From IMG/VR virus record IMGVR_UViG_2703718819_000006: DNA of 64,000 nt; one strand, 5' to 3'. The translations under genes were made by a program, and so were the position numbers. Of the stretch, positions 37,481 through 37,605 are shown piece after piece (positions within the stretch are counted from its first letter, which is position 1; each line of letters starts with the position of its first letter). This stretch comes from a virus (lineage: Duplodnaviria > Heunggongvirae > Uroviricota > Caudoviricetes). Under the pieces are notes generated by a model. The model saw nothing but the letters and a program-made list of their open reading frames with translations. It was not told where the DNA came from and did no database searches.

Positions 37481-37605
37481 TTCACAACGTTGAGGCCACT
37501 ACTCCGATTGAATGTTTGCCCAACATGTTACATATCAACGCTCGCCGGTATCTCTGTGAATAGAACCTTAGAATTGATAAAAATGTAATGGCCTCAACGT
37601 TGTGT
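37481..37605. other. 15-bp perfect inverted repeat separated by about 95 bp (potential long stem-loop) upstream of tRNA cluster
   Basis: CACAACGTTGAGGCC (37481-37495) and GGCCTCAACGTTGTG (37591-37605). Confidence 0.45.

What the first reader, a model, noticed from the sequence alone, without database searches (positions are those of the whole stretch)
37481..37605. Perfect 15-bp inverted repeat separated by about 95 bp upstream of the tRNA cluster
CACAACGTTGAGGCC and its exact reverse complement flank a 95-bp segment. That is unusually long for a chance match. It could form a large stem-loop in a tRNA precursor leader, or mark the ends of a small inserted element.
Basis: seen in the sequence. 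Interest (0 to 1): 0.4.

Follow-up and report, generated by a model that had tools for sequence, protein, structure and literature searches.

The report
Conserved RNA hairpin in phage tRNA-operon leader
The inverted repeat is real and forms the 20-base-pair closing stem of a conserved folded RNA domain in the long untranslated leader of a phage-plasmid's tRNA operon, a leader that also starts with an unannotated element resembling the tag-coding part of bacterial tmRNA.

Summary
The repeat is confirmed. It is 16 bp perfect (37483-37498 / 37589-37604) and extends to 20 bp with one G·U on the minus strand. Chance gives about 0.025 such repeats per window.

The window is an SSU5-like phage-plasmid of E. 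coli. The repeat lies in a 776-nt gene-free leader, 264 nt upstream of tRNA-Asn on the tRNA strand.

Across 22 relatives the stem stays 98.6% paired. Three pairs show compensatory double changes, and every one-sided change gives G·U only on the tRNA strand. Kuttervirus phages hold the same three-way-junction domain with 11 of 19 stem pairs swapped. This is therefore an RNA helix, not a mobile-element end.

A presence/absence polymorphism does exist. About 18% of sampled Klebsiella relatives lost the domain by deletion between the palindromic CAACGTTG cores.

A paralogous 20-bp hairpin sits 2 nt after tRNA-Ser, so the two bracket the tRNA cluster. I infer RNase III-type processing or boundary stems; this is untested.

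The leader begins with a core in at least 752 phage records. It has a 10-codon tmRNA-like tag (ANEEVYLAVA), stop codons in a hairpin loop and a covarying pseudoknot. I found no tRNA-like domain and no matching description.

The parts
37585..37604 (-). 5' arm (RNA sense) of the 20-bp closing helix P1: CACAACGUUGAGGCCAUUAC
   Evidence: covariation
37483..37502 (-). 3' arm of P1: GUAGUGGCCUCAACGUUGUG. Its last 6 nt (GUUGUG) are shared with helix I3.
37503..37584 (-). Interior of the domain (three-way junction). It holds a U-rich strand, hairpin P2 with the conserved CACAGAG (37552-37558) and hairpin P3 AUGUUGGGCAAACAU (37512-37526).
   Evidence: folds; conserved motifs shared with Kuttervirus loci
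37425..37488 (-). Helix I3 (GUUGUGAAGACAGG 37475-37488 with CCUGUUUUCACAAC 37425-37438). It is adjacent to P1 and competes with P1 for GUUGUG.
   Evidence: I3; covarying versions in SSU5 and Klebsiella relatives
37606..37624 (-). Small conserved hairpin GCUGGU-loop-GCCAGC immediately 5' of P1
   Evidence: helix 1, 100% paired, one double change
37676..37764 (-). 22-bp hairpin I1 (arms 37743-37764 / 37676-37697). Its one-sided changes are G·U on the - strand only.
37766..37789 (-). Perfect 11-bp hairpin I6. By position and sequence it resembles the lambdoid module stem GGUAAGAGCAUUG...CAGUGCUCUUUCC (my reading of the sequences).
37803..37942 (-). tmRNA-like core. It comprises the invariant GUUUUCG (37936-37942), the tag frame GCA..GCC 37873-37902 (ANEEVYLAVA), UAA UAA at 37867-37872 in a hairpin loop (37855-37884), an H-type pseudoknot (37817-37854) and the hairpin CACAC/GUGUG (37803-37819).
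37946..37977 (-). Promoter-like TTTACT-N17-TAAGAT. It aligns with TTGACA-N17-TAAGAT directly upstream of the same core in phage Michonne. Inferred only; it falls below the scan's cutoff.
36972..37218 (-). tRNA-Asn (37144-37218), tRNA-Tyr (37052-37138), tRNA-Thr (36972-37047)
36239..36325 (-). tRNA-Ser
36159..36236 (-). Paralogous 20-bp hairpin (CACAGCGUUGAGCGGUUUGG / CCAGACCGCUCAACGCUGUG) that starts 2 nt after the tRNA-Ser CCA end. It has the same 12-nt stem base and an interior CUUUUAAUCA motif like that of the domain.
36062..36081 (-). Intrinsic-terminator-like GGGGCUUCGGCCCCUUUUUU that probably ends the operon. It was read from the sequence; the terminator scan did not list it.

Best explanation
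The repeat acts at the RNA level. On the minus-strand transcript its two arms pair into a 20-bp helix, here called P1. P1 closes a roughly 120-nt three-way-junction domain inside a long, highly structured, non-coding 5' leader of the phage-plasmid's tRNA operon. The operon order is: promoter-like site, tmRNA-like core, hairpins, this domain, tRNA-Asn/Tyr/Thr, further modules, tRNA-Ser, a paralogous hairpin, terminator. Shown here: the helix and its interior are conserved, and the pairing is maintained by compensatory change in two unrelated phage groups. Inferred here: P1 and its paralogue just after tRNA-Ser are both about two helical turns of near-perfect duplex. I read them as double-strand-specific (RNase III-type) processing or boundary stems that cut or protect the modules of the polycistronic ncRNA-tRNA precursor. 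The neighbouring helix I3 can compete with P1 for the shared GUUGUG. The domain is an accessory, not an essential part, because about one in six sampled Klebsiella relatives have lost it.
For: Context: the window is an SSU5-like phage-plasmid. The 37219-37994 stretch carries no annotated gene in relatives. Strand: the whole leader folds to -272 kcal/mol on the - strand (z = -9.4) against -243 on the + strand (z = -4.3). Covariation within SSU5-like elements: in 22 distinct sequences the 19-bp stem is 98.6% paired and 3 pairs have changes on both sides. All one-sided changes are G·U in the - sense. Slid controls pair at only 21-50%. Covariation between phage groups: Kuttervirus loci (Det7 L129, L093, L080, L120) hold a domain at the same distance, about 360 nt 3' of the same core. 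It shares the interior motifs UCUUUUAA, CACAGA and AUGUUGGGYNNAAC, and 11 of 19 stem pairs are doubly substituted. Stem length stays at 18-22 bp in all of them. A second 20-bp hairpin with the same 12-nt base lies 2 nt after tRNA-Ser and is conserved in E. coli and Klebsiella types. The motif CACARCGTTGAG occurs 5 times against 0.76 expected. Helix I3 covaries. Established knowledge: E. coli RNase III cuts duplexes of about two helical turns and excises rRNAs and phage T7 early RNAs from such stems.
Against: No transcript data were available, so transcription, the promoter (8 of 12 consensus matches, not called) and any cleavage are inferred. Roughly 18% of sampled Klebsiella relatives lack the domain, so any role is dispensable. 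The two paralogous stems share 12 nt of sequence, more than pairing alone requires. That hints at a sequence-specific partner rather than a generic double-strand nuclease. G·T pairs are also tolerated in single-stranded DNA hairpins, so the strand asymmetry does not strictly prove RNA. The conserved interior suggests a function beyond that of a simple processing stem.
Confidence: 0.6

Rival explanations
1. Conformational switch. P1 and the adjacent helix I3 share the six bases GUUGUG, so the leader can alternate between two folds. The fold adopted would gate read-through, processing or stability of the downstream tRNA part, in the manner of an attenuator or antiterminator.
For: I3 (37475-37488 / 37425-37438) overlaps the 3' arm of P1 and covaries strongly in SSU5 and Klebsiella relatives. 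By my reading of the sequences, the same CACAAC...GUUGUG...CACAAC layout recurs in the lambdoid modules and in window 36326-36534.
Against: No U-tract or terminator follows either helix. Both helices can coexist if each gives up a few base pairs. No ligand, protein or leader peptide is evident. The deletion variants keep I3 but lose P1.
Confidence: 0.15
2. DNA-level element. The palindrome forms a cruciform or a single-stranded DNA hairpin, or it offers two CAACGTTG binding sites about 107 bp apart. It would serve replication priming, an origin, or protein-mediated looping within the replication gene block.
For: The locus lies between DnaB/primase/ligase genes and the DNA polymerase gene in SSU5. 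Each arm holds the palindrome CAACGTTG. G·T is tolerated in DNA hairpins (established knowledge).
Against: The paralogous hairpin has CAGCGTTG/CAACGCTG, which is not palindromic but still pairs. Kuttervirus stems have a different sequence yet keep the pairing and the interior motifs. The element always lies on the tRNA strand between other covarying RNA helices. It is dispensable for plasmid maintenance in many Klebsiella plasmids.
Confidence: 0.12
3. Small non-autonomous mobile element (MITE-like) bounded by terminal inverted repeats and inserted upstream of the tRNA genes.
For: It has 16-20-bp terminal inverted repeats and a length of about 122 bp. Some relatives lack the segment.
Against: There is no target-site duplication. 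The motif occurs only in this operon in the window, and among fetched loci only in about half of them, including all those recognised as SSU5-like. The sites that lack it retain one CAACGTTG core, as expected for a deletion between the two 8-bp direct copies. The interior is conserved across E. coli, Salmonella and Klebsiella elements and Kuttervirus. The arms covary.
Confidence: 0.03
4. Chance palindrome with no function.
For: None beyond the fact that short palindromes do occur by chance.
Against: Expected count is 0.025 per window. The repeat is conserved and covaries in dozens of relatives.
Confidence: 0.01

Closest known systems
RNase III processing stems (rRNA operon stems; phage T7 early-region R sites)
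   Same: They are near-perfect duplexes of about two helical turns placed between or around functional RNAs in a polycistronic precursor. Here P1 (20 bp), I1 (22 bp) and the post-tRNA-Ser hairpin (20 bp) lie in one operon.
   Different: Cleavage was not tested. The stem encloses a conserved three-way junction rather than a simple loop or a whole RNA. The two paralogous stems share 12 nt of sequence.
tmRNA (ssrA), for the core that heads the same leader
   Same: The core has a resume-type GCA codon and a 10-codon tag AN[DE]..., ending in a hydrophobic/Ala tail. The stop codon sits in a hairpin loop, followed by an H-type pseudoknot. A-4 is invariant and U-5 is usual upstream, as with U85/A86 of E. 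coli tmRNA (my recollection). The only Rfam matches are weak tmRNA hits aligned in frame.
   Different: No tRNA-like domain was found by ARAGORN, Rfam or hand search: no T-arm, no G3·U70 acceptor stem, no CCA end. All Rfam scores are below the gathering threshold. There is no blastn similarity to host ssrA. The element is co-transcribed with tRNAs in phages.
Stable small RNAs of the phage T4 tRNA cluster (species 1 and 2, rnaC/rnaD)
   Same: These are non-coding RNAs of unknown function encoded within, and co-transcribed with, a phage tRNA cluster and released by processing (established knowledge).
   Different: No sequence relation was tested or seen. The T4 RNAs are short, whereas this leader is about 730 nt and modular.
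ROOL and GOLLD large structured RNAs of phages
   Same: They are large, highly structured non-coding RNAs of phages and prophages that commonly lie next to tRNA genes (established knowledge).
   Different: No Rfam match to either family. They occur in different hosts (mainly Firmicutes and relatives). There is no evidence here for multimeric cages.
STnc100 / PasD prophage sRNAs
   Same: A module downstream in the same operon (36303-36475) matches Rfam STnc100 just below threshold (42.5 against 47 bits). By my reading it uses the same CACAAC/GUUGUG stem bases. STnc100 is a prophage-associated sRNA related to PasD, whose hits lie near the Q antiterminator gene (bioRxiv 10.64898/2026.05.13.724894).
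   Different: The finding's hairpin does not match that model. It lies 1 kb away and has a different interior.

Membership tests
RNase III-type processing stem | Continuous duplex of about 20 bp or more (two helical turns) | tested here: met
   20 bp with one G·U. Length is 18-22 bp in all homologues. The paralogue is 20 bp.
RNase III-type processing stem | Lies between or around functional RNAs of one precursor | tested here: met
   It sits between the tmRNA-like core and tRNA-Asn. The paralogue starts 2 nt after tRNA-Ser.
RNase III-type processing stem | Staggered cleavage in the stem that depends on rnc | not testable with these tools
   Needs RNA end mapping in rnc+ and rnc- hosts.
MITE / small mobile element | Terminal inverted repeats | tested here: met
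   16 bp perfect, 20 bp with one mismatch.
MITE / small mobile element | Target-site duplication flanking the repeats | tested here: not met
   Flanks are ...CCTGTCTT | ... | TGCTGG..., with no duplication.
MITE / small mobile element | Dispersed copies, and empty sites that lack the whole element | tested here: not met
   The motif occurs only in this operon and in only about half of the fetched loci, including all those recognised as SSU5-like. Sites lacking it keep one CAACGTTG core.
Intrinsic terminator | G+C-rich stem followed by a U-run | tested here: not met
   No U-run follows the 3' arm. No terminator was called there.
Retron msr/msd | Flanking inverted repeats together with an adjacent reverse transcriptase gene | tested here: not met
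   Inverted repeats are present, but no reverse transcriptase is annotated near the locus in SSU5 or relatives. The 82-nt interior is shorter than I recall for msr plus msd.
Any Rfam 15 family (for the hairpin) | Covariance-model match | tested here: not met
   No match overlaps 37483-37604 even at E up to 10.
tmRNA (for the neighbouring core 37803-37942) | Tag reading frame: GCA-type resume codon without a start codon or Shine-Dalgarno site, about 10 codons, Ala-rich hydrophobic end, stop codon | tested here: met
   ANEEVYLAVA** in the window. Twenty distinct nucleotide variants all have 10 codons plus TAA or TAG. Variable sites by codon position are 5/5/9. Variants found without constraining the tag give ANDDVVLMAA, ANDDLMLMAA, ANDSEVLMAA and the P7 tag ANDDLMMAAA.
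tmRNA (for the neighbouring core) | Stop codon in a helix loop followed by pseudoknots | tested here: met
   27 pairs are 97.6% paired, 8 with double changes. Both stems of the first pseudoknot covary. The second pseudoknot was judged by eye only.
tmRNA (for the neighbouring core) | tRNA-like domain: acceptor stem with G3·U70, T-arm and CCA end formed by the 5' and 3' ends | tested here: not met
   ARAGORN finds no tmRNA in the window or in 40 loci. No T-loop lies outside tRNAs or tRNA-like remnants. No partner for the invariant GUUUUCG was found.
tmRNA (for the neighbouring core) | Rfam tmRNA models at gathering score | tested here: not met
   Best scores are 14-30 bits against cut-offs of 47-84, although the alignments are in frame with the tag.

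The most novel reading that the evidence does not exclude
The hairpin is an accessory domain of a large (about 0.7 kb) phage RNA that descends from tmRNA. Its 5' core keeps a decoded 10-codon degradation-tag-like frame and pseudoknots but has no recognisable tRNA-like domain. The core is present, unannotated, in at least 752 phage genomes, including lambdoid/P22-like, P1/P7, Felix O1-like, Vi01-like, N4-like and SSU5-like phage-plasmids, and is always associated with tRNA genes. If so, phages would intervene in ribosome rescue or protein tagging through a new kind of tmRNA derivative, either using an unknown way of entering the ribosome or pairing with a separate acceptor piece.
Probability: 0.35. 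Interest if true: 0.85.

Novelty: new variant of a known kind. Interest (0 to 1): 0.62.

Why it matters
Phage tRNA clusters are usually annotated as bare tRNA genes. Here the tRNAs sit inside a long leader whose helices are under clear structural selection, with modules shared between temperate phage-plasmids and virulent Kuttervirus phages. That gives concrete, testable processing signals for phage tRNA expression.

The leader's first module looks like the coding part of tmRNA, with a tag frame kept at exactly 10 codons across many phage families. If it is decoded, it would be a previously unrecognised way for phages to act on ribosome rescue or proteolysis tagging. It would also explain a conserved 'intergenic' block in well-studied phages such as HK620 and P7.

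Tried and rejected
Rfam at gathering and at permissive thresholds found only tRNAs, a sub-threshold STnc100 hit and weak tmRNA hits. Nothing matched the hairpin.

The search for a tRNA-like domain to go with the tag element found none.
- ARAGORN on the window and 40 loci found no tmRNA.
- T-loop scans hit only the true tRNAs plus tRNA-like remnants such as 36497-36513.
- A search for a CGAAAAC partner of the invariant GUUUUCG found 4 of 74 loci, at inconsistent positions.
- A search for a T-arm followed by such a strand found only ordinary tRNA-Met 3' halves and random hits.
- An acceptor-like pairing CAGUGCUCUUUCC / GGUAAGAGCAUUG around the lambdoid core would give G3·U70. I rejected it because no T-arm lies in the right place and the pairing is not conserved in Det7.

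The full-length tmRNA_permuted hit in Michonne (29.9 bits) uses the neighbouring tRNA-Ile as its acceptor piece, so it is an artefact.

The +1 frame ORF (MQTKK...) was rejected. Its start is AUG, GUG or CUG and its length varies between 5 and 9 codons.

Integron attC-like core sites were considered by eye. The match is only 5-6 of 7 positions and no integrase was noted in the SSU5 annotation, so I rejected this.

Literature searches for phage tmRNA-like elements found nothing relevant. One search was wasted on loose terms.

A pattern scan for the P3 motif found only further Kuttervirus copies plus random hits.

The long-range pairs proposed by RNAalifold for the whole leader (5' end with 3' region) rest on invariant or one-sided changes, so I did not use them.

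Full report
OBSERVATION. The repeat is present as described. CACAACGTTGAGGCC lies at 37483-37497 and its reverse complement at 37590-37604. The perfect match is 16 bp (37483-37498 / 37589-37604). The pairing extends to 20 bp (37483-37502 / 37585-37604, 82 nt between the arms) with one mismatch, which is C/A on the + strand and G·U on the - strand. In 200 simulated 64-kb sequences with the window's dinucleotide statistics, perfect 15-mer inverted repeats within 200 nt averaged 0.025 per sequence. The window has two, both in this operon.

CONTEXT. The window is an SSU5-like phage-plasmid of E. coli. It is 99% identical to many 95-120-kb E. coli plasmids, 97-98% identical to phages Cyrano and CMS-2020a, and about 78% identical to Salmonella phage SSU5. 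Four tRNA genes lie on the - strand: Asn 37144-37218, Tyr, Thr, and Ser 36239-36325. The repeat sits in a 776-nt stretch (37219-37994) that holds no annotated gene in relatives. That stretch lies between a small ORF and tRNA-Asn, inside a co-oriented block of replication genes. The repeat is 264 nt upstream of tRNA-Asn in the direction of transcription.

THE STEM IS SELECTED AS RNA ON THE tRNA STRAND. I aligned 22 distinct SSU5-like versions from E. coli, Salmonella and Klebsiella elements.
- The 19-bp stem is 98.6% paired.
- Three pairs carry changes on both sides (G-C to A-U twice, and C-G to U-G to U-A).
- Every one-sided change gives G·U in the minus sense, which would be A·C on the + strand.
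- With partners slid by 1-3 columns, pairing drops to 21-50%.
The same strand bias holds for the neighbouring 22-bp hairpin I1. The whole leader folds to -272 kcal/mol on the - strand (z = -9.4) against -243 on the + strand (z = -4.3).

IT IS THE CLOSING HELIX OF A CONSERVED DOMAIN. The interior is not junk. All lineages keep a U-rich strand, a hairpin that carries CACAGAG, and a hairpin AUGUUGGG...ACAU. Kuttervirus (Vi01-like) phages such as Det7 (L129) and IMG/VR loci L093, L080, L120, L242 and L244 have a domain with the same interior motifs. It lies at the same distance, about 360 nt downstream of the same upstream core. It is closed by a 19-22-bp stem of different sequence. In a MAFFT alignment, 11 of 19 stem pairs show double compensatory changes. 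Stem length is held at 18-22 bp throughout.

PRESENCE/ABSENCE POLYMORPHISM. Klebsiella phage GArcari-2022b (L004) and locus L092 lack the domain exactly between the two CAACGTTG cores. Each arm contains this 8-bp palindrome, so the arms are also short direct repeats. I took an even-step sample of 60 from 304 matching Klebsiella plasmids. Of these, 36 carry the hairpin, 11 lack it and 13 match only part of the query. These are deletions in a lineage that otherwise has the domain. There is no target duplication and no dispersed copies. The mobile-element reading is therefore rejected, and the domain is dispensable.

NEIGHBOURS IN THE SAME TRANSCRIPT.
(a) A second 20-bp hairpin (36159-36236) starts 2 nt after the CCA end of tRNA-Ser. 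It shares the 12-nt stem base CACARCGUUGAG, with the A-U pair replaced by G-C, and has an interior CUUUUAAUCA motif like that of the domain. It is conserved in E. coli and Klebsiella types. A terminator-like GGGGCUUCGGCCCCUUUUUU follows at 36062-36081.
(b) Helix I3 (37475-37488 / 37425-37438) shares GUUGUG with the 3' arm of P1 and covaries. It reads AAGACAGG/CCUGUUUU in the window, AAAUUAGG/CCUGGUUU in L098 and GUCACGG/CCGUGGC in Klebsiella.
(c) By my reading of the sequences, the same CACAAC...GUUGUG...CACAAC arrangement recurs in modules at 36326-36534. These resemble lambdoid late-leader modules and the sub-threshold STnc100 match.

THE LEADER STARTS WITH A tmRNA-LIKE CORE. The most conserved part of the leader (37803-37942) is nearly invariant across SSU5-like elements. 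Parts of it match hundreds of other phages.
- Reading frame: the minus strand reads ...AAUACAAGU GCA AAC GAA GAA GUC UAU CUG GCA GUA GCC UAA UAA. This encodes ANEEVYLAVA followed by two stops. The E. coli ssrA tag is ANDENYALAA (my knowledge).
- Tag variants: homologues retrieved with a tag-based pattern, and others retrieved with an anchor outside the tag, give 20 distinct nucleotide variants. All have exactly 10 codons plus TAA or TAG. Examples are ANEEMYLAVA, ANDEQFLAVA, ANDNVFLAVA, ANDDVVLMAA, ANDDLMLMAA and ANDSEVLMAA. Variable sites by codon position number 5, 5 and 9, and the first, second and tenth codons differ only by synonymous changes. P7 has ANDDLMMAAA.
- Other frames: the frame upstream of the tag is not conserved, and the alternative +1 ORF varies in start codon and length.
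- Structure: the stop codon sits in a hairpin loop and an H-type pseudoknot follows. Of 27 pairs, 97.6% are paired and 8 show double changes; both pseudoknot stems covary.
- Rfam: the only matches are weak tmRNA hits (14-30 bits, below threshold) that align the tag in frame.
- Distribution: the core occurs in 752 phage records and in 691 of 5426 complete E. coli genomes. It is annotated as nothing or as a hypothetical protein.
- Location: in HK620 it lies in the late leader between qut and tQ. In Michonne it lies inside the tRNA cluster, directly behind a TTGACA-N17-TAAGAT promoter. In P7 it lies between the C1 operator of the ban operon and tRNA-Asn.
- Missing part: I found no tRNA-like domain by any route, and no description in the searchable literature.
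I therefore call it tmRNA-like and do not file it as a tmRNA.

MECHANISM. Shown: P1 is an evolutionarily maintained helix that closes a conserved three-way-junction domain on the tRNA strand. Inferred: the operon contains three near-perfect helices of two turns (I1, P1 and the post-tRNA-Ser hairpin), placed at module boundaries. This is the anatomy of RNase III-type processing or protection stems, as in rRNA operons and T7 early RNAs (established knowledge). I think this the most likely role. The shared 12-nt stem base and the conserved interior leave room for a specific protein partner or a role within the large tmRNA-like RNA. The rivals are a P1/I3 conformational switch, a DNA-level palindrome, a mobile element and chance. 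They are weighed in the structured fields.

NOVELTY. Long processing hairpins in phage transcripts are a known kind of feature. This particular domain matches no Rfam family, and the literature searches, which targeted the tmRNA-like core and SSU5/STnc100 rather than the hairpin, turned up no description of it. It is shared by two unrelated phage groups. It also belongs to a leader whose tmRNA-like head appears to be undescribed. I rate it a new variant of a known kind, with an uncertain but potentially much more novel reading.

Noticed in passing
window 37803-37942 (- strand); also L006 (HK620), L007 (Michonne), L129 (Det7), L130 (P7) and more than 100 IMG/VR loci: An unannotated tmRNA-like core. 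It has a 10-codon tag frame (ANEEVYLAVA in the window; AN[DE]... with a hydrophobic/Ala end elsewhere), a stop codon in a hairpin loop and a covarying pseudoknot. It occurs in at least 752 phage records. No tRNA-like domain was found.
   Followed up: partly
window 36159-36236 (- strand): A second 20-bp hairpin with the same 12-nt stem base as the finding. It starts 2 nt after the tRNA-Ser CCA end. Its stem is invariant in E. coli and Klebsiella relatives while its loop differs.
   Followed up: partly
window 34122-34154, 37409-37422, 38421-38434, 28092-28105 (and 2392-2405 with 2 mismatches): The 14-mer ATGATTCCATACAT occurs 6 times against 0.55 expected. At 34122-34154 two copies form a palindrome, which looks like an operator. 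In the leader it is followed by a partial inverted copy, GTATGAAT, and it is invariant in the 11 representative SSU5-like relatives aligned. It also reads as ATG ATT CCA TAC AT. (MIPY.) at the start of small ORFs.
   Followed up: partly
window 36326-36534 (- strand): Modules like those of lambdoid late leaders: CACAACAGGUAAGAGCAUU ... a T-arm-like hairpin CAGAG-UUCGACU-CUCUG (36497-36513) ... AAUGCUCUUUCCGUUGUGGUGAAUG ... CACCACAAC, just before tRNA-Ser. Rfam STnc100 matches 36303-36475 at 42.5 bits (cut-off 47). In locus L042 the equivalent module still looks like a tRNA with an oversized anticodon region.
   Followed up: partly
window 37676-37764 and 37766-37789 (- strand): A 22-bp hairpin (I1) with conserved arms, a variable loop and G·U-only one-sided changes, preceded by a perfect 11-bp hairpin (I6). 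Both lie between the tmRNA-like core and the finding.
   Followed up: partly
window 37965-37985 (- strand): A small palindrome TAAGTA-TT-TACTTA overlaps the -35 of the promoter-like site. It is invariant in the SSU5-like relatives aligned and may be an operator.
   Followed up: no
window 37995-38285 (- strand) and relatives: The 96-aa ORF upstream of the leader is annotated 'C-type natriuretic protein' in SSU5 and many plasmids. That name is implausible for a phage protein and appears to have been propagated between records.
   Followed up: no
L001 (CP116917.1) 5116-6782: In one close relative, an ISEcp1-blaCTX-M-15 unit sits about 1.3 kb from this leader, where the window and SSU5 have the DNA ligase gene.
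   Followed up: no
L130 (P7) 1472-1496: In P7 a terminator-like hairpin GCCCAUCUUCGGGUGGGCGUUUUUU lies between the C1-controlled ban promoter region and the tmRNA-like core. P1-type plasmids match only the 5' part of the core.
   Followed up: no
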